Shown piece by piece: positions 77-17,328 of a stretch of 17,365 nucleotides of DNA. Numbering within the stretch: position 1 is the stretch's first letter; every line of letters starts with the position of its first letter. The notes beneath the pieces are model-generated. The model saw only the letters and a list, made by a program, of their open reading frames with translations. It searched no databases and was not told the origin of the DNA. The stretch comes from a virus. The position numbers were made by a program, and so were the translations under genes. The stretch is from the IMG/VR virus record IMGVR_UViG_3300028833_002934; one strand, 5' to 3'.

Positions 77-105
77 ATTTTATAATATTTTTTTTAAATT
101 TGCAA
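77..105 (-). promoter_or_regulatory. sigma70-like promoter (minus strand: TTGCAA-17nt-TAAAAT), transcribes leftward out of window
   Basis: Plus-strand ttgcaa at 100-105 (self-complementary). Plus-strand atttta at 77-82 gives TAAAAT on the minus strand. Spacer is 17 nt. Confidence 0.35.
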
Positions 106-182
106 TTAGATTTCCTTTTTTAATAAGTATGCCGTTCATCTGTTTCTTTTTTAAAGATATTTCTTATCTTTTTTACAATTAT

Positions 183-211
183 ATTATATAATTTTTTTTT
201 TAAATTTTCAA
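183..211 (-). promoter_or_regulatory. Recurrent promoter module (minus strand: TTGAAA-17-TATAAT), transcribes leftward out of window
   Basis: Plus-strand tttcaa at 206-211 and attata at 183-188, with a 17 nt spacer. The module matches the copies at 5106, 7903, 12337 and 14878. Confidence 0.5.
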
Positions 212-1821
212 ATAGCCGTGTAATCTGCGATAACATCAGGGATACTAGAATTTAAATCAAATATTTCAGCGAATCTATCCTTATCAATCACATCATCTAA
301 TGTAATATAATATTTGACATCCCAAAGACGTTTGTCTATACGAGGTTTATTATTAAATACTTTAAAATATTCTGGGTTAGTATCAGGATCATATACATAA
401 ATGACATTATCATAATAAATAGGATTATTGTTATCATCATACCCAATTAACCAATGAAGGCAATCACAATGTTGTGCAAGATGAGAATAACCAGTTAGAT
501 CATCAACGACACATTCAGTTTCAAAACATTCTTCACAAATAGGATCATCTAAATCATCAATATAATAAAAATAATCTTTAGGAAGATAATCTCCGCAGCA
601 AGCGCAATAAGTTCCATTATCGCATTTTATGCACATTACGGCATTATCTCTTTCTCTATCTTCTATTGGTTGCCCACACCACATACATGTGGCTAAACCT
701 CCATAAGAAAATTCTGCCATATAATGCCAATTTGTTGCTTCTTTATCTTGCCATTCAGTTAAATGATATTTCCCTATTTTATTACGATTAATTCTTGCAC
801 GATGCGTATCAAGAGTCCCAAAATCATTATACATATATTGCTCAGGGGAAATATTAATAAGTAAATCATCATCTTCATTCCAAGGAATAGTATTAGCAAC
901 ATTTATTTCATCATTATCATAAGTCCATCCTAAATTATTTTCTGCCAATTCTTTAATCCACATTAAGACCGTATTTGTTAAATGTAGATCTTGGAAACAA
1001 TATCCTTTAATCTCTGACATCATTTCTGGATAAACAACGAATAATTCACGCCAATGTTTACTATTCCATTCCATACCTTGAATAGGCTCCATAGTATGTT
1101 CTGGATTATGCAAATATGCTACTAAAATATATGGAGAATTCATACACTCTATAGTGCCACATCTATAATCTCCATGATCCATCCAACTCATACAACTAGA
1201 CCAATTATTATTATTATCACTCATTGTCATAAAATCTAATGGATGGATTGATAAACAAAGTTCCCCATCAACCATTTTACTATTTAACATTTGAGAATGC
1301 CAAAGTCTAAAATTTTCAAAAATTTGTTCATCACATTTATATTTTTGTGCAATTTTAGATAAAATACGTAATGGGCGCATACCTTTTGATACTTTAAATT
1401 TTTCATTATCTGGTGGCAAATAATAGGTTGTCGTTGCATAAGGGTATTTATTATCTGCTAATACTGATAAATCAAAAGTATCCCTAATCATAGTATAAAC
1501 ACCATAATCTTGAGTTGACATAGGCCCCAAGACTTCTTTTTTTATCCACTATGAAAAATTCTCATAAGCTGGAGTATATTTCTCTATTGACATTTTTTTT
1601 ACTATTGCATCTGTATTATACATATAAGTATAAGGACGCCGCACAATAAAATTATTTCCTAAAAGTTTGTATAAAGTTTGTTTTTGGCGATCCCATTCGT
1701 GTAATATAATATCAAATCCACTAAAATCATGCTCTGGTTCATAATTATCATTAATGGGACCAAATGTTCTAATATAATTATAAATTAAATCTTTATCTTG
1801 TTCTGAAAGTTTTTCTATCAT
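208..1821 (-). CDS. Large Cys-rich hypothetical protein (~537 aa) if TAG at 1549-1551 is read through. Under the standard code it splits into two ORFs, 1549..1821 (90 aa) and 208..1530.
   Basis: Track ORFs 1549..1821 and 208..1530 share one frame (codon boundaries at 1821 and 1530 are both 0 mod 3). They are separated only by TAG at 1549-1551 plus 6 sense codons. RBS AAAGGAC lies upstream of ATG at 1821. The track's start at 1530 is TTG. The stop is TGA at 208-210. The C-terminal half carries many CxxC pairs. Function is not recognised. Confidence 0.5.
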
Positions 1822-1842
1822 TGTTTGTCCTTTAACAGCAAA

Positions 1843-1876
1843 AATTCAAAGGATTAAATATTAATCCTTTGAATTA
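1843..1876 (-). terminator. Intrinsic terminator-like hairpin between two minus-strand genes
   Basis: 14 bp perfect inverted repeat attcaaaggattaa/ttaatcctttgaat around a 3 nt loop. The plus-strand aaaaa at 1840-1844 is a U-run for the minus-strand transcript. The hairpin overlaps the TAA stop (1861-1863) of the upstream gene. Confidence 0.5.
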
Positions 1877-2793
1877 TCCTTTTCATTTACTTTATTATTC
1901 TTATCTTTCTTATTATTTAACATAAAATAAAGATATGGACTTCCACCCATTAACATCAACATAGTTGGATCAATATCTATATTATTTTTCTGTGTTAAAG
2001 CAAACAAAGCAAGTAAATTATTATTATTATTATTATCCTTAATAAACATTAAAGGAAGTAAACTACCAAATGGATTATTTGAATCAGCTTCTGGTAAATA
2101 ATCTGTAATAGATATAATAACAGTGACATAATTAAATCCAAATGGAGACATTGAAGGAAGGATTGTTAATTCTGTACCTTCATATGGGTTAATAACAACA
2201 AAACGGTTATCTTTAATTTCTTCAACAAACATCAAATTTCCATTATGAAGAACAATATCTCCAACCTCAACATCGCTTATTGCTTTTGGAAATTTATAGA
2301 AAATTTTAGAATTTTCAATTTCAATATTTAAAATATTAACATCAACAATAGCATTTCTCTAGCGATCAAAAGATACCCATTTATTCTCTTTATTTTTAAG
2401 AGCAATTCCAAAAGTAGAAAGACGTAAATTATTTGATGTATATGGGCCAAAACTAAAATCAGTATTACTCATTTTATCTTTTTGTTTTTCCTCCGCTAAT
2501 TTTTTCTCTATTATATCTTCTATAGACTACCATCCATTATTAGGCCATACATAAGATGACGATGTTAATGGTTGATAAGTAAAACTATAATCATTCGCAG
2601 TATAATCTCCTATTGAGATATTATTACTATATGTTTCTCCAGACTAAATAGTATATGTATCAGTAGATGATAGCCCAGTAACCTTGATACGATCATCTGC
2701 AATAGAAAACTATATACTACTATTATCATTACCACTTGTAATAGAATTTGAAGAACAAACTGTATTTACAGTGGATGTTAAATTATCAGACAT
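1861..2793 (-). CDS. Hypothetical protein, 310 aa, containing four in-frame TAG codons (recoded)
   Basis: ATG at 2793 lies 9 nt after GGAG. A single frame of 310 codons runs to TAA at 1861-1863. It is interrupted only by TAG at 2710-2712, 2644-2646, 2527-2529 and 2359-2361, with no in-frame TAA or TGA. The track saw only the last 124 aa (1861..2235). The N-terminus is Ser/Thr/Asn-rich. Confidence 0.6.
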
Positions 2794-2852
2794 TCTTTAC
2801 AACTCCAATACATTATTTTCTATATTAATTTTATCATTTTTTTTAAAGAATG

Positions 2853-3275
2853 TCAATAATCTTCATTTTCATCTTGAGCTTCTTGTTCAATAAAGAACAT
2901 TTCTCCATCAAAATGAACTTTTACTGTTTCATCTTCTATATAATTTTGGATATCTTCTGCTATTTGTTCTAATTCTTCTTCCGTATAAAGTTCCTCTATG
3001 TATTCGTTATCATAGGTTAAAAATAAAATAGCATCTTCAATAGAAGAACCAAATTCTCTATATTTATCATAAATATGAAAAAGATTTTCCTCAAAATTAC
3101 GAGCAAATGCTAAATCGAATAAATCTTCAATAGTATTTACTGTAAATTGTTTATCATTAACGACTATTGGGTCATCATTTTCATAAAGTTCTTGCAAAAG
3201 ATAAAAGTCATCTATATTATTATAAGATGTTAAACTTGCCATAGAACTTAGAAAAAAATCAATAGTTCTTGTCAA
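2853..3275 (-). CDS. Acidic hypothetical protein (140 aa from TTG). It may begin at ATG 3368 with a read-through TAG at 3306-3308.
   Basis: The track ORF starts at TTG. The same frame stays open upstream through a TAG to ATG at 3366-3368, 24 nt after the TGA stop of the upstream gene. Very acidic C-terminus. Stop is TGA at 2853-2855. Confidence 0.55.
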   Translation of the reverse strand: MTRTIDFFLSSMASLTSYNNIDDFYLLQELYENDDPIVVNDKQFTVNTIEDLFDLAFARNFEENLFHIYDKYREFGSSIEDAILFLTYDNEYIEELYTEEELEQIAEDIQNYIEDETVKVHFDGEMFFIEQEAQDENEDY

Positions 3276-3391
3276 TTCATGGTCATCAATTCCAGCAAGA
3301 TATCGCTACTTAGACGAAGTATCTAAATTTTTAAAATGAAAATATAAATCTTTAAATTCATCTAACATACTATTATAATAGACAAATTCTT

Positions 3392-16718: not shown

Positions 16719-16749
16719 TTTTTATTCTCCTTTTCTGTTTTCTGTAATC

Positions 16750-16778
16750 ATTATAACAAATAATTTTTAATCTGTCAA
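16750..16778 (-). promoter_or_regulatory. Perfect consensus promoter TTGACA-17-TATAAT for gene 16521..16718
   Basis: Plus-strand tgtcaa at 16773-16778 and attata at 16750-16755, with a 17 nt spacer. Confidence 0.6.
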
Positions 16779-16794
16779 TACCTTTTTTAATAAT

Positions 16795-16826
16795 TAAAAA
16801 ATTAACAATCTCCTGCCCGGGCAGTT
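16795..16826 (-). terminator. Putative terminator: GC palindrome CTGCCCGGGCAG (16813-16824) followed by a U-run on the minus strand. A second hairpin GGTGCG...CGCACC lies at 16829-16850.
   Basis: A 12 bp perfect GC-rich palindrome in AT-rich DNA. The plus-strand aaaaaatt at 16795-16802 is a T-run for the minus-strand transcript. Confidence 0.4.
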
Positions 16827-16908
16827 AGGTGCGACTTACTCGCCGCACCATAACACTTCATCAGTATCTTCATCAACTTTCATTTCATCATAATCACGAA
16901 CAAACATT

Positions 16909-17085
16909 TTATAAACCTTCCTTCTCCATTGCCGCATCAATAGCGGCGGTATCATTACGAAGTGCATAAACCAAAAGATTATGAGCGAAAATCAAAGCAT
17001 TTTTAGTCTGCGGAGAATGCGCAGTCTCAACACGGTGTTTAAGAATTTTCAAAACACAAATAAAAAGATAATTATTTTTATCCAT
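16909..17085 (-). CDS. Small hypothetical protein, 58 aa (not in ORF track)
   Basis: GGGAGGT lies 7 nt before ATG at 17083-17085. The protein begins MDKNNYLFICVLKILKHRVETAHSPQTKNALIFAHNLLVYALRNDTAAIDAAMEKEGL. Stop is TAA at 16909-16911. Confidence 0.5.
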   Translation of the reverse strand: MDKNNYLFICVLKILKHRVETAHSPQTKNALIFAHNLLVYALRNDTAAIDAAMEKEGL

Positions 17086-17088
17086 TTT

Positions 17089-17249
17089 TTATACCTCCCA
17101 TTTCCACATAGCAATTCTCCAACCTATAGGAGTAAGATAAAATTTTCCATTACGGCATTCAATCATCTCATCTTTTTCCAGTTCCCTCACGACTGGAGAA
17201 TCATCAAGAGGAGAGCCAGGATGCCCGCACAGATAACCAATAATTTCAT
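17089..17249 (-). CDS. Small hypothetical protein, 53 aa
   Basis: AAAGGAAG precedes ATG at 17249 (MTRNEIIGY...). The first 12 codons of the track ORF are RBS sequence. Confidence 0.55.
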
Positions 17250-17299
17250 TACGTGTCATTTTATTTACTTCCTTTCTTCTTATCTCTTGGAACAATTAT

Positions 17300-17328
17300 A
17301 GTATAATACAAAAGGAGCTATTTGTCAA
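17300..17328 (-). promoter_or_regulatory. Promoter (minus strand: TTGACA-17-TATACT) for the 17249 operon
   Basis: Plus-strand tgtcaa at 17323-17328 and agtata at 17300-17305, with a 17 nt spacer. The architecture matches the promoter at 16213-16241. Confidence 0.5.

What the first reader, a model, noticed from the sequence alone, without database searches (positions are those of the whole stretch)
77..17328. Highly stereotyped promoter module repeated at least 8 times, plus several perfect TTGACA-17-TATAAT promoters
Read on the minus strand, the recurring block tattatataatattttttt(t)aaaattttcaa is TTGAAA, a 17 nt spacer, then TATAAT, with conserved A/T-rich flanks. It occurs at 183, 5106, 7903, 12337, 14878, 15090 and 15205 (plus-strand coordinates). 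TTGATT variants occur at 10461 and 15288. Further consensus promoters occur at 16213, 16750 and 17300 on the minus strand and at 10879 and 15650 on the plus strand. All have exactly 17 nt spacers. This implies transcription by a host with canonical sigma-70/SigA specificity, not the Bacteroidota-type promoter, which narrows the likely host range. The conserved extended module may be recognised by an element-specific factor as well.
Basis: seen in the sequence. Interest (0 to 1): 0.55.

Follow-up and report, generated by a model that had tools for sequence, protein, structure and literature searches.

The report
Stereotyped phage promoter cassettes, conserved family-wide
A roughly 45-base sigma-70-type promoter unit occurs ten times on the gene strand of this fragment of a large uncultured phage that reads TAG as glutamine, and hundreds of times in related phages; it is a familiar kind of phage regulatory element, seen here in a phage family where I found no earlier description of it.

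Summary
Ten copies of TTGAAA/TTGATT-17 nt-TATAAT, with a conserved A/T spacer and conserved bases after the -10, all lie on the minus strand. They score 35-47 bits; the next best site scores 19.6 and shuffles reach 15.5 at most. Six further TTGAC-type sites also have 17-nt spacers.

The window comes from a large, uncultured, TAG=Gln-recoded phage. In 80 related contigs, TTGNNN-N17-TATAAT occurs 568 times on the gene strand and 36 times on the other. About 45 nt are conserved there: TTGATT-tttttaaaaaaatatga-TATAAT-atatatagaaa.

A terminator hairpin often lies directly upstream, and a Shine-Dalgarno sequence plus ATG follows about 33 nt after the -10. In relatives the module also drives tRNAs, including amber suppressors. 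A strain-level indel and jumps in identity fall at promoters.

Best reading: strong sigma-A-type promoter/terminator cassettes that work like T4 PeSLs. Many relatives encode a compact RpoD-like sigma behind such a promoter. I did not find one in this lineage, but that search was incomplete.

A Bacillota-like host is plausible but unproven. Verdict: new member of a known kind, moderate interest.

The parts
77..105 (-). Stereotyped promoter, weakest copy (TTGCAA-17-TAAAAT). It is the downstream one of a tandem pair. The gene it precedes starts near position 24 and runs off the window; it encodes a 135-aa protein in L355.
   Evidence: (40.0 bits)
183..211 (-). Stereotyped promoter (TTGAAA-17-TATAAT). 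Its -35 overlaps the TGA stop of gene 208-1821. It lies 106 nt upstream of the 77-105 copy.
   Evidence: 42.4 bits
2828..2856 (-). It precedes gene 1861-2793. Identity to relative L044 drops from 87% upstream to no hit downstream of it.
   Evidence: (19.6 bits)
5106..5134 (-). Stereotyped promoter (TTGAAA-17-TATAAT). A 32-nt leader with GAGG follows, then the ATG of gene 4615-5073.
   Evidence: 46.6 bits; identical copy in L044 at 15525
5140..5175 (-). Terminator-like hairpin (16 pairs plus T run), 5 nt upstream of the -35 at 5134. It is the terminator half of the cassette.
7903..7931 (-). Stereotyped promoter. Its leader is nearly identical to that of the 5106 copy. It precedes the run of small genes 7868 down to 5174.
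   Evidence: (45.4 bits)
7934..7975 (.). 19-pair hairpin between the end of the MVP-like gene (7978) and the -35 at 7931. It is a terminator-like half of a cassette.
10461..10489 (-). TTGATT-17-TATAAT promoter with TGn, of the family-consensus type. It precedes the MVP-like gene 7978-10425. A promoter is found within 200 nt upstream of that gene in 51 of 79 relatives.
   Evidence: (38.3 bits)
10879..10907 (+). TTGACT-17-TAAAAT promoter-like site upstream of the plus-strand formate/nitrite-transporter-family gene 10923-11521.
12337..12365 (-). Stereotyped promoter preceding genes 12288 down to 11500. It sits in a divergent intergenic region facing the ribbon-helix-helix-like repressor gene.
   Evidence: (46.4 bits)
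14878..14906 (-). Stereotyped promoter, the last of four in tandem. A 105-nt leader separates it from gene 14377-14772.
   Evidence: (46.4 bits)
15090..15118 (-). Stereotyped promoter with TGn, in the tandem array. A 183-nt non-coding stretch follows.
   Evidence: (44.1 bits)
15205..15233 (-). Stereotyped promoter with TGn, in the tandem array. An 86-nt non-coding stretch follows.
   Evidence: (38.1 bits)
15288..15316 (-). TTGATT-17-TATAAT promoter with TGn, the first of the tandem array. A 54-nt non-coding stretch follows.
   Evidence: 35.2 bits
15650..15678 (+). Perfect TTGACA-17-TGnTATAAT promoter on the plus strand. It would give a transcript of about 85 nt ending at the 15733-15758 terminator.
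   Evidence: 92% identical block in L044
15733..15758 (.). 11-pair GC-rich hairpin lying between the plus-strand transcript from the 15650 promoter and the stop of minus-strand gene 15757-16056. The scan calls it a plus-strand terminator; use on the minus strand is my inference.
16213..16241 (-). TTGACA-17-TATACT promoter with TGn, preceding a 41-codon ORF and gene 15757-16056.
16750..16778 (-). Perfect TTGACA-17-TATAAT promoter with TGn and the leader gattacagaaaacagaaaaggagaataaaaaATG. A strain-level indel ends at its upstream edge: the window has 137 nt where L351 has 852 nt.
17300..17328 (-). TTGACA-17-TATACT promoter preceding genes 17259 down to 16909.

Best explanation
The repeated block is a strong sigma-70/sigma-A-type promoter. 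It forms the core of a compact intergenic cassette: terminator hairpin, then -35 TTGAnn, a 17-nt A/T spacer (often with TGn), -10 TATAAT, a conserved start region ATATATAGAAA, a short leader, a Shine-Dalgarno sequence and ATG.

The cassette punctuates runs of small genes in a large uncultured phage that decodes TAG as glutamine. RNA polymerase carrying a primary-type sigma binds the two hexamers. It most likely starts at the A or G about 7 nt after the -10, and the hairpin just upstream stops read-through from the preceding unit.

The same module is used throughout the phage family, including for tRNA genes and amber-suppressor tRNAs. Because the copies are so alike, they probably also act as sites of homologous recombination that insert, delete or swap gene cassettes.

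Shown: the sequence anatomy, the strand bias, the position relative to genes, and the family-wide conservation. Inferred: promoter activity, the start site, which sigma reads the module, and the role in recombination.
For: - **Window statistics.** Ten copies, all on the minus strand, none expected by chance. All spacers are 17 nt. Each copy lies in an intergenic gap upstream of a co-oriented gene or of another copy.
- **Family strand bias.** In 80 loci around the MVP-like gene, PWM hits of at least 22 bits occur in most loci and never on the opposite strand.
- **Unbiased pattern.** TTGNNN-N17-TATAAT gives 568 hits on the gene strand and 36 on the other. The unconstrained positions are conserved only on the gene strand (A at spacer positions 13-15 in about 90%, A after the -10 in 90%). 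On the opposite strand the 17 spacer positions and 13 start-region positions match the consensus at only 6.1 and 4.4 on average.
- **Not a composition effect.** The module persists in relatives with 44% GC, where GC-rich hairpins abut it.
- **Cassette architecture.** 43% of 458 unique sites have a hairpin of -8 kcal/mol or better within 40 nt upstream, against 4% in shuffles. 264 of 458 have SD plus ATG within 60 nt, with a sharp mode 30-35 nt after the -10. Terminator-like sites are enriched in the window (21 against 7.4 +/- 3.0).
- **Other transcription units.** The module sits upstream of tRNAs, including tRNA(CTA), and upstream of the phage RpoD-like sigma gene in relatives.
- **Recombination.** A 99%-identical strain (L351) carries an extra promoter-plus-gene cassette flanked by repeated promoter-leader units, exactly where the window has one promoter. 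Identity to L044 changes abruptly across promoters 2856, 7931, 10489 and 12365.
Against: - There is no transcription data, so activity and start sites are inferred.
- The dominant family -35 is TTGATT (286 of 458), not TTGACA (59 of 458). About 30 non-hexamer positions are conserved. That is more than hexamer recognition alone explains, and it leaves room for a phage-specific factor.
- Only 3 of the 10 stereotyped copies in the window have an obvious hairpin directly upstream.
- The recombination role rests on one indel and four identity jumps, with no statistical test.
- Four copies in tandem (14878-15316) have no gene, tRNA or significantly structured RNA between them. Their individual purpose is unexplained.
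Confidence: 0.8

Rival explanations
1. The module is read mainly by a phage-encoded RpoD-like sigma factor that replaces or out-competes host sigma A. Host sigma A would be needed only to start expression of that sigma gene. The conserved TTGATT -35, spacer and start region would then reflect the phage sigma's own preferences.
For: - A compact sigma of about 300 aa, with regions 1.2, 2, 3 and 4, lies within 10 kb of the MVP-like gene in 13 of 80 related loci, two of them only as fragments cut off at the locus end. It is also in several MAG-binned phage contigs. It is 41-51% identical to E. coli RpoD regions 2-4. Its best NCBIfam matches are RpoD models, below their cut-offs.
- It usually sits directly behind a module promoter.
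- More than 500 stretches in IMG/VR encode a relative of this sigma.
- The consensus is stable across relatives with 30-47% GC, which suggests a reader that travels with the phage.
- In the 8-sequence alignment, the residue at the position I equate with E. coli T440 is invariably Ser. The residue at R584 is Lys in the L077 and L092 sequences and Arg in L066. Those numbering equivalences and their roles in -12 and -31 recognition come from my own knowledge.
- Phage-encoded RpoD-like sigmas have been reported (PMC7824862; PMC7162821).
Against: - No sigma gene was found in the window, in its 99-100%-identical strain contigs, or in the ~87 kb held of the closest relative's 240-kb contig.
- The sigma gene itself needs a polymerase that already reads the module.
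- Lys or Arg at position 584 does not track -35 usage: L066 keeps Arg yet uses TTGATT.
Confidence: 0.3
2. The extra conservation of the spacer and start region exists because the module doubles as a binding site for a phage DNA-binding regulator, either a repressor or an activator. Candidates are the ribbon-helix-helix-like protein at 12473-12658 or the small, possibly winged-helix proteins encoded just outside the window. Such a regulator would switch the whole promoter class on or off together.
For: - The -10 region sits in a perfect 14-bp palindrome, ATATTATATAATAT, in six window copies.
- A gene for a repressor-like protein is adjacent to one copy: phrog_876 'transcriptional repressor' at E = 2.4e-6.
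- The gene driven by the tandem pair 211/105 encodes a 135-aa protein. Its paralogue has sub-threshold PaaX and MarR hits.
- About 30 non-hexamer positions are conserved family-wide.
Against: - The palindrome arises automatically from ATTATA/TATAAT overlap in A/T sequence, and it is lost in the TGn variants (ATATGATATAAT), which are the family consensus.
- No regulator is conserved next to the modules in the loci I looked at.
- The Pfam hits are below threshold.
- T4 early promoters show similar extra consensus without such a factor (PMC2988021).
Confidence: 0.12
3. The copies are alike mainly because they spread and homogenise by recombination, as mobile cassettes under concerted evolution, and not because every conserved base is needed for transcription.
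For: - The indel flanked by repeated promoter-leader units in L351.
- The identity jumps at promoters.
- Near-identical 65-nt promoter-plus-leader units at 5134 and 7931.
- Within-locus copies are slightly more alike than copies from different loci: 10.07 against 11.12 mismatches of 36, with a permuted value of 11.11 +/- 0.10.
Against: The within-genome excess similarity is small. The same consensus holds across genomes whose MVP-like proteins are only 50-65% identical. That points to purifying selection on function and not to recent copying alone. This is a complement to the best explanation and not a true alternative.
Confidence: 0.4
4. The repeats are chance products of A/T-rich sequence, or they serve replication or packaging and not transcription.
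For: The window is 30% GC. A replication-origin-like region with iterons and an A/T-rich tract lies nearby, at 13290-13860.
Against: Zero matches are expected in shuffles. Strand bias is absolute in the window and strong in 80 relatives. The distance to SD plus ATG is fixed. The module persists in relatives with 44% GC. The iterons have an unrelated sequence.
Confidence: 0.02

Closest known systems
PeSL (promoter-early stem-loop) cassettes of T4-type phages (Arbiol et al. 2010, PMC2839356; Comeau et al. 2014, PMC4122927)
   Same: Both are conserved composite intergenic units with a strong sigma-70-like -35/-10, a stem-loop that acts as terminator or attenuator, and then SD and ATG. Both are concentrated in regions full of small genes of unknown function. 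In both, indels between close relatives are bounded by the units.
   Different: - A different, uncultured phage family with TAG recoding and a probably Gram-positive-type host.
- Here the hairpin, when present, lies just upstream of the -35. In PeSLs it most often lies between the boxes or over the -10.
- The family -35 is TTGATT, and 13 nt after the -10 are conserved.
- The module also drives tRNAs.
- Mini-circles were not tested.
T4 early promoters and other very strong phage promoters read by host RNA polymerase (T7 A1-A3, T5, lambda PL)
   Same: Both have near-consensus -35, TGn and -10 elements plus additional consensus positions beyond the host elements ('uber' promoters; PMC2988021). 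Tandem arrays of strong early promoters, as at T7 A1-A3 (my own knowledge), resemble the array at 14878-15316.
   Different: No conserved UP-like A/T block appears upstream; positions -40 to -5 carry almost no information. The -35 departs from TTGACA in most copies. The temporal class is unknown.
Gram-positive sigma-A promoters with the -16 TRTG motif (Voskuil and Chambliss 1998; my own knowledge)
   Same: The family consensus aTATGaTATAAT contains TRTGnTATAAT. TGn is present in 37% of family sites and TRTG in 24%, against 6% TGn on the opposite strand.
   Different: Six of the ten window copies have TATTA in place of TATGA, so the motif is not obligatory. No host promoters were available for comparison.
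Phage-encoded RpoD-like sigma factors of jumbo and huge phages (Iyer et al. 2021, PMC7824862; Al-Shayeb et al. 2020, PMC7162821)
   Same: Relatives of this phage encode a near-complete, RpoD-like sigma. Such sigmas are proposed to recruit host core polymerase to phage promoters.
   Different: For this family a candidate cognate promoter can be named and counted. The sigma was not found in this window or its closest relative.
T4 middle promoters (MotA box plus -10; sigma appropriation)
   Same: A host-type -10 is combined with a phage-specific conserved upstream element.
   Different: The MotA box is centred at -30 and replaces the -35. Here a TTGAnn hexamer sits at the canonical 17-nt spacing. 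I did not look for MotA or AsiA homologues.

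Membership tests
Sigma-70/sigma-A-dependent promoter | -35 hexamer resembling TTGACA | tested here: met
   TTGAAA (6 copies), TTGCAA (1) and TTGATT (2-3) in the stereotyped class; TTGACA or TTGACT in six other sites. In the family: TTGATT 286, TTGACA 59, TTGACT 30 and TTGAAA 23 of 458.
Sigma-70/sigma-A-dependent promoter | -10 hexamer TATAAT at a spacing of 17 +/- 1 nt | tested here: met
   All 16 listed sites have 17-nt spacers. 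Eleven have exact TATAAT, three TAAAAT and two TATACT.
Sigma-70/sigma-A-dependent promoter | Upstream of genes and co-oriented with them | tested here: met
   In the family, 568 sites on the gene strand against 36 on the other; SD plus ATG has its mode 30-35 nt after the -10.
Sigma-70/sigma-A-dependent promoter | Transcripts start 5-9 nt downstream of the -10, dependent on primary-sigma holoenzyme | not testable with these tools
   No transcript data or biochemistry is available.
PeSL-type promoter/terminator cassette | Conserved composite intergenic unit: strong sigma-70-like promoter plus SD plus ATG | tested here: met
PeSL-type promoter/terminator cassette | Associated stable stem-loop acting as terminator or attenuator | tested here: met
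   Hairpins at 5140-5175 and 7934-7975 abut the -35. In the family, 43% of sites have a hairpin of -8 kcal/mol or better within 40 nt upstream, against 4% in shuffles. The hairpin is not present at every copy. Terminator function is inferred.
PeSL-type promoter/terminator cassette | Located in regions rich in small genes of unknown function | tested here: met
   Of the 21 distinct window-encoded proteins scanned, five have an annotated match: MVP-like, zinc ribbon, Form_Nir_trans, the sub-threshold DUF6290/phrog_876 repressor-like hit, and a sub-threshold FAM92 hit. Most small genes have homologues only in L044 and L021, two loci of the closest relative's contig.
PeSL-type promoter/terminator cassette | Indels or replacements between close relatives are bounded by the cassettes | tested here: inconclusive
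   One clear case (L351 against the window at 16778) and four identity jumps against L044. There are too few events for a statistical test.
PeSL-type promoter/terminator cassette | Formation of excised mini-circles | not testable with these tools
   This needs inverse PCR or read-level data.
PeSL-type promoter/terminator cassette | Resident in T4-type myoviruses (the sequence family as defined) | not tested
   I did not look for T4-type core genes. The only GenBank phage records with the MVP-like protein are three uncultured huge phages, at 40-41% identity. I file the element as 'works like a PeSL' and not as a member of that sequence family.
Bacteroidota-type promoter (-33 TTTG / -7 TAnnTTTG) | TAnnTTTG enriched upstream of genes on the gene strand | tested here: not met
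   36 matches against 27.6 +/- 5.1 expected, spread over both strands and inside genes.
T4 middle (MotA-dependent) promoter | MotA box (TTTGCTTTA-like) centred at -30 in place of the -35 | tested here: not met
   The conserved upstream element is TTGAnn at the canonical 17-nt spacing. The definition comes from PMC2988021.
Promoter class of a phage-encoded RpoD-like sigma | The same genome encodes the sigma factor | tested here: inconclusive
   Present in many relatives. Not found in the window, in L351-L357, or in the ~87 kb held of the closest relative. Whole-collection searches were truncated.

The most novel reading that the evidence does not exclude
This phage family carries its own transcription system. 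A compact RpoD-like sigma, lacking region 1.1 and with substitutions at promoter-contacting positions, would have co-evolved with a 45-nt promoter (TTGATT-N17-TATAAT-ATATATAGAAA). That promoter would be partly orthogonal to host promoters. Because the same promoter class drives the amber-suppressor tRNAs, it would also set the timing of the switch to the TAG=Gln code. If so, the module would be the cis-element of a phage-encoded sigma-replacement programme in uncultured gut and rumen phages, and the genes behind it would form the regulon of that sigma.
Probability: 0.2. Interest if true: 0.7.

Novelty: new member of a known kind. Interest (0 to 1): 0.45.

Why it matters
- **Annotation.** The module gives a ready-made, high-confidence promoter model (about 45 nt, strictly strand-specific) for a large and abundant family of uncultured 100-240-kb phages from animal-associated metagenomes that has no cultured member. 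It can be used to mark transcription units, to separate genes with their own promoter from operon members, and to orient contigs.
- **Genetic-code switch.** It links transcription to recoding. Amber-suppressor tRNAs and TAG-containing genes, such as the MVP-like gene with TAG at codon 6, sit behind the same promoter class as TAG-free genes. Any temporal control of recoding would therefore have to act at another level, or through a factor acting on this module.
- **A testable sigma-promoter pairing.** Finding an RpoD-like sigma behind the module in many relatives makes one question directly testable: does a phage-borne primary-type sigma have a recognisably different promoter preference?
- **Practical use.** The units are candidate strong, portable promoters and terminators for Bacillota-type hosts.

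Tried and rejected
- **Small RNAs or tRNAs between the tandem promoters (14878-15316).** ARAGORN found no tRNA in the window. Rfam at E <= 1 gave only three chance-level hits. The inter-promoter segments fold no better than shuffles (z from +0.1 to -1.5). I found no evidence for a structured RNA or tRNA there. In relatives the region upstream of the MVP-like gene, where the window has this array, holds tRNA arrays, so the window's array may be what is left after tRNA loss. That is an inference.
- **Close cultured relative.** Megablast of the whole window against 50,697 phage records found nothing. The MVP-like protein matched only three uncultured huge phages.
- **Genome-specific promoter dialects as a sign of co-evolution with a factor.** The effect is real but small: 10.07 against 11.12 mismatches. 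It is not decisive.
- **Two functional classes (TTGACA with free spacer against TTGAAA/TTGATT with fixed spacer).** In relatives, TTGACA occurs with the same conserved spacer and start region. The split seen in the window is not general.
- **Lys or Arg at the sigma position equivalent to E. coli R584 as an explanation for T or A at the fifth -35 base.** L066 keeps Arg and still uses TTGATT. Not supported.
- **Finding the sigma gene in this lineage.**
  - tblastn against all held loci found none.
  - The window's own assemblies are at most 18 kb.
  - Result: undetermined.
- **Host from genome contigs.** Matches are MAG contigs, many of them 140-176 kb, that look like binned phage genomes. This is weak evidence only.
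- **Bacteroidota-type promoter motif.** Not enriched.

Full report
**What the window is.** The 17.4-kb window has about 30% GC. Nearly all of its genes are on the minus strand. Standard-code ORFs are broken by in-frame TAG, and treating TAG as sense restores long ORFs. These include an 815-aa protein with major-vault-protein domains (MVP_shoulder, E = 2.4e-20; Vault_3). At the TAG in codon 6 of that gene, 58 of 69 aligned relatives have Gln, so TAG is read as glutamine.

The MVP-like protein finds 82 relatives in IMG/VR viral contigs, most of them 100-240 kb long. The closest is IMGVR_UViG_3300028805_000039 (239,565 bp; 97% protein identity; syntenic over most of the window at about 85-90% nucleotide identity). 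No GenBank phage is close: megablast finds nothing, and the protein matches only three uncultured huge phages at 40-41%. Contigs 99-100% identical to the window exist in four metagenome assemblies, but none exceeds 18 kb. Clades of 150-210-kb stop-codon-recoded gut phages have been described, with no mention of promoters (bioRxiv 10.1101/2021.08.26.457843). I did not test whether this family is one of those clades.

**The observation.** It is correct in every coordinate.
- The 29-mer TTGAAAAWTTWAAAAAAAWATTATATAAT, with up to 3 mismatches, occurs 8 times. All are on the minus strand, and none is expected by chance.
- With the two TTGATT variants there are ten stereotyped copies.
- A PWM built from them scores them 35-47 bits. 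The next site scores 19.6, the best plus-strand score is 16.3, and the best of 200 shuffles is 15.5.
- Six further sites have TTGACA or TTGACT with a 17-nt spacer and a less conserved spacer sequence.
- A generic sigma-70 scan is not enriched overall (107 against 98.6 +/- 10.5), so the signal is the stereotyped class and not A/T richness.

**Anatomy in the window.** Each copy lies in an intergenic gap.
- The copies at 5134 and 7931 share about 65 nearly identical bases, running from the -35 to the ATG: TTGAAAattttaaaaaaatattaTATAATatttatagaaaa(a)taagaaatgagg(t/a)atttttt(t)ATG. Both are preceded within 2-5 nt by a terminator-like hairpin (5140-5175 and 7934-7975).
- The copy at 10489 precedes the MVP-like gene.
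- The copy at 12365 faces a ribbon-helix-helix-like repressor gene.
- Copies 211 and 105 form a tandem pair.
- Copies 15316, 15233, 15118 and 14906 form a four-fold tandem array ahead of gene 14377-14772. Nothing between them is recognisable as a gene, tRNA or structured RNA.
- Terminator-like sites are about three times more frequent than in shuffles (21 against 7.4 +/- 3.0).

**Family-wide evidence.** This is the strongest argument for function.
- In the 80 loci of about 22 kb around the MVP-like gene, PWM hits of at least 22 bits occur in most loci, typically 3-11 per locus, and never on the opposite strand.
- To avoid circularity I used the bare pattern TTGNNN-N17-TATAAT. It gives 568 sites on the gene strand and 36 on the other.
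- Among 458 unique gene-strand sites the unconstrained positions are strongly conserved. The consensus is TTGATT TTTttAAAAAAATATgA TATAAT ATATATAgAAAat. The 33 opposite-strand sites show no conservation.
- The module is intact in relatives with 44% GC, where it abuts GC-rich hairpins, so base composition does not explain it.
- 43% of sites have a stable hairpin within 40 nt upstream, against 4% in shuffles.
- 264 of 458 sites are followed by SD plus ATG, with a sharp mode 30-35 nt after the -10.
- A promoter is found within 200 nt upstream of the MVP-like gene in 51 of 79 loci.
- The 80 loci carry 324 tRNA genes, all on the gene strand. They include 21 amber suppressors, tRNA(CTA), of which 11 have such a promoter within 127 nt. 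Examples are L092 20585 to 20629 and L042 3858 to 3913.

**How it most likely works.** The anatomy is that of a promoter for a primary-type sigma: -35 TTGAnn, a 17-nt spacer, TATAAT, and TGn in 37% of family sites (TRTG in 24%). By my own knowledge TRTG is the -16 motif typical of Gram-positive sigma-A promoters. The start is expected at the conserved A or G about 7 nt after the -10. The upstream hairpin insulates each unit. Activity, start site and strength are all inferred.

The extra conservation, about 30 non-hexamer positions, has a precedent. T4 early promoters also show consensus beyond the host elements (PMC2988021).

**An unexpected finding in relatives.** Thirteen of the 80 loci, two of them only as fragments cut off at the locus end, and several MAG-binned phage contigs encode a compact sigma factor of about 300 aa.
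- It has regions 1.2, 2, 3 and 4.
- Its best NCBIfam matches are RpoD models, below their cut-offs.
- It is 41-51% identical to E. coli RpoD regions 2-4.
- In L077, L082, L092, L093, L099, L119, L192, L238, L248, L252 and L279 the gene lies directly behind a module-type promoter.
- More than 500 stretches in IMG/VR encode a relative of it.
- Homologues of window gene 208-1821 lie next to the sigma gene in L248, L252 and L280.

Two cautions apply. The sigma gene must first be transcribed by a polymerase that already reads the module, presumably host sigma-A holoenzyme. And I could not find a sigma gene in the window, its strain contigs, or the ~87 kb held of the closest relative; the collection-wide searches were truncated. 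Phage-borne RpoD-like sigmas are already known (PMC7824862; PMC7162821).

**Host.** Several lines point away from Bacteroidota and towards Bacillota.
- The Bacteroidota motif is not enriched.
- SD-like cores are found ahead of 27 of 30 genes.
- The TRTG motif is present.
- 50 of the 66 MAGs holding the module are labelled Bacillota.

The MAG hits look like binned phage contigs; several carry the MVP-like gene. The host therefore remains an inference.

**Recombination.** Strain contig L351 is 99% identical to the window. It has 852 nt where the window has 137 nt (16778-16915). In L351 an additional promoter-plus-gene unit in that segment is bracketed by two near-identical promoter-leader units (TATAATgatYacagaaaa..aaggagaataaaaaATG), and the window retains one such unit. 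The closest relative L044 also has extra sequence at this position. Identity between the window and L044 jumps across promoters 2856 (87% to no hit), 7931 (95% to 71%), 10489 (83% to 96%) and 12365. This is the pattern described for PeSL cassettes of T4-type phages (PMC2839356). With so few events I did not test it statistically.

**Comparison and novelty.** Functionally this is a PeSL-like cassette system, or a set of 'uber' early-type promoters. It is not a member of the T4 PeSL sequence family. It differs in hairpin position, in its -35 consensus (TTGATT), in having a conserved start region, in driving tRNAs, and in its association with a phage RpoD-like sigma in relatives. I rate it a new member of a known kind. 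It is of moderate interest mainly because it supplies a precise promoter model, and a candidate sigma-promoter pair, for an abundant uncultured recoded phage family.

**Caveats.**
- All functional statements rest on sequence.
- Loci were sampled around one marker gene.
- Near-duplicate loci inflate raw counts; I report 458 unique contexts alongside the 568.
- The identity of the element as a phage rests on IMG/VR classification and on gene content such as tRNA arrays. No virion genes lie in the window.

Noticed in passing
window 208-13292 (for example 10408-10410, codon 6 of gene 7978-10425): In-frame TAG codons occur in at least 9 of about 31 genes. At MVP codon 6, 58 of 69 relatives have Gln, so TAG is read as Gln. 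Genes 3392-7868 and 14377-17259 contain no TAG.
   Followed up: yes
window 7978-10425 (-): An 815-aa protein with major-vault-protein Shoulder and Vault_3 domains and a long coiled-coil C-terminus. It is conserved (48-97% identity) in more than 80 viral contigs and at about 41% in the 735-kb and 462-kb huge phages LR756501, LR756503 and LR756500. It has no PHROG match. Its role in a phage is unknown.
   Followed up: partly
L077 5066-5968, L092 13702-14622, L119, L066, L082, L093, L099, and others: Relatives encode a compact RpoD/SigA-like sigma factor (regions 1.2-4, about 300 aa), usually directly behind a module promoter. It is often next to the tRNA array or next to a homologue of window gene 208-1821.
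   Followed up: partly
window 13291-13770 and 13775-13860: Eight to eleven iterons (CGTCAAAAAGTTGGTAAATTTTACCGAG, containing the palindrome GGTAAAnTTTACC) are followed by an 85-nt pure A/T tract. This looks like a replication origin. It lies downstream of plus-strand ORFs 12677-13292, and the four tandem promoters fire towards it.
   Followed up: partly
window 15650-15770 (+): A perfect TTGACA-17-TGnTATAAT promoter is followed by a GC-rich structured transcript of about 85 nt ending in a strong terminator (z = -3.9, much of it from the terminator). It runs antisense to the general gene direction, is 92% conserved in L044 and has no Rfam match. It is a candidate small RNA.
   Followed up: partly
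window 12386-12404: A perfect inverted repeat, GACATACC-GAT-GGTATGTC, lies in the divergent region between promoter 12365 (-) and the ribbon-helix-helix-like repressor gene (12473-12658, +; phrog_876). It may be an operator.
   Followed up: no
window 10923-11521 (+): A formate/nitrite-transporter-family membrane protein (Pfam Form_Nir_trans, E = 4.7e-18) is encoded on the opposite strand with at least five in-frame TAG codons. It is an auxiliary-metabolism-type gene written in the recoded code.
   Followed up: partly
window 16778-16915 against L351 2985-3837: A strain-level polymorphism: 852 nt in a 99%-identical contig against 137 nt in the window. In L351 an extra promoter-plus-gene unit in that segment is bracketed by repeated promoter-leader units.
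   Followed up: yes
window 5546-6576 (-), and 5174-5509 / 7551-7868 (-): Tandem paralogous small genes: four ORFs of about 80-95 aa sharing LLQEI..DxY motifs. Two ORFs of about 105-110 aa start MSVD...YGYGY. This suggests local gene-family expansion in the cassette-rich region.
   Followed up: no
L355 9140-9547 (continues window 1-24, minus strand) and L351 773-1150: Two paralogous proteins of 125-135 aa (N-terminal KVTKRERY motif, C-terminal winged-helix-like segment, sub-threshold PaaX and MarR hits) flank the window. One is driven by the tandem promoters 211/105. They are possible DNA-binding regulators.
   Followed up: partly
window 14266-14331 and 14990-15023: A 15-pair hairpin (GAAACTCGTAGCTAC ... 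GTAGAACTACGAGTTTC) is followed by a T run on the plus strand. Part of it (AAAAAGTAGAACTAyGA) recurs between the tandem promoters. The short repeats GAAATGAAA at 13911-14005 are unexplained.
   Followed up: no
IMGVR_UViG_3300028805_000039 (loci L002-L032, L044): In the closest relative's 240-kb contig, all 14 exact matches to the window-type module lie on one strand. They fall at about 134-227 kb plus one at 0.9 kb, with none in between. The module, or at least this variant of it, may be confined to part of the genome.
   Followed up: no
Genome-contig loci L121-L240: Whole phage-sized contigs (139-176 kb) of this family are binned into MAGs labelled Bacilli, Acutalibacteraceae, Lachnospiraceae, Mollicutes, Endomicrobiaceae and Methanobrevibacter. 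This is probable contamination of public MAGs by phage contigs.
   Followed up: partly
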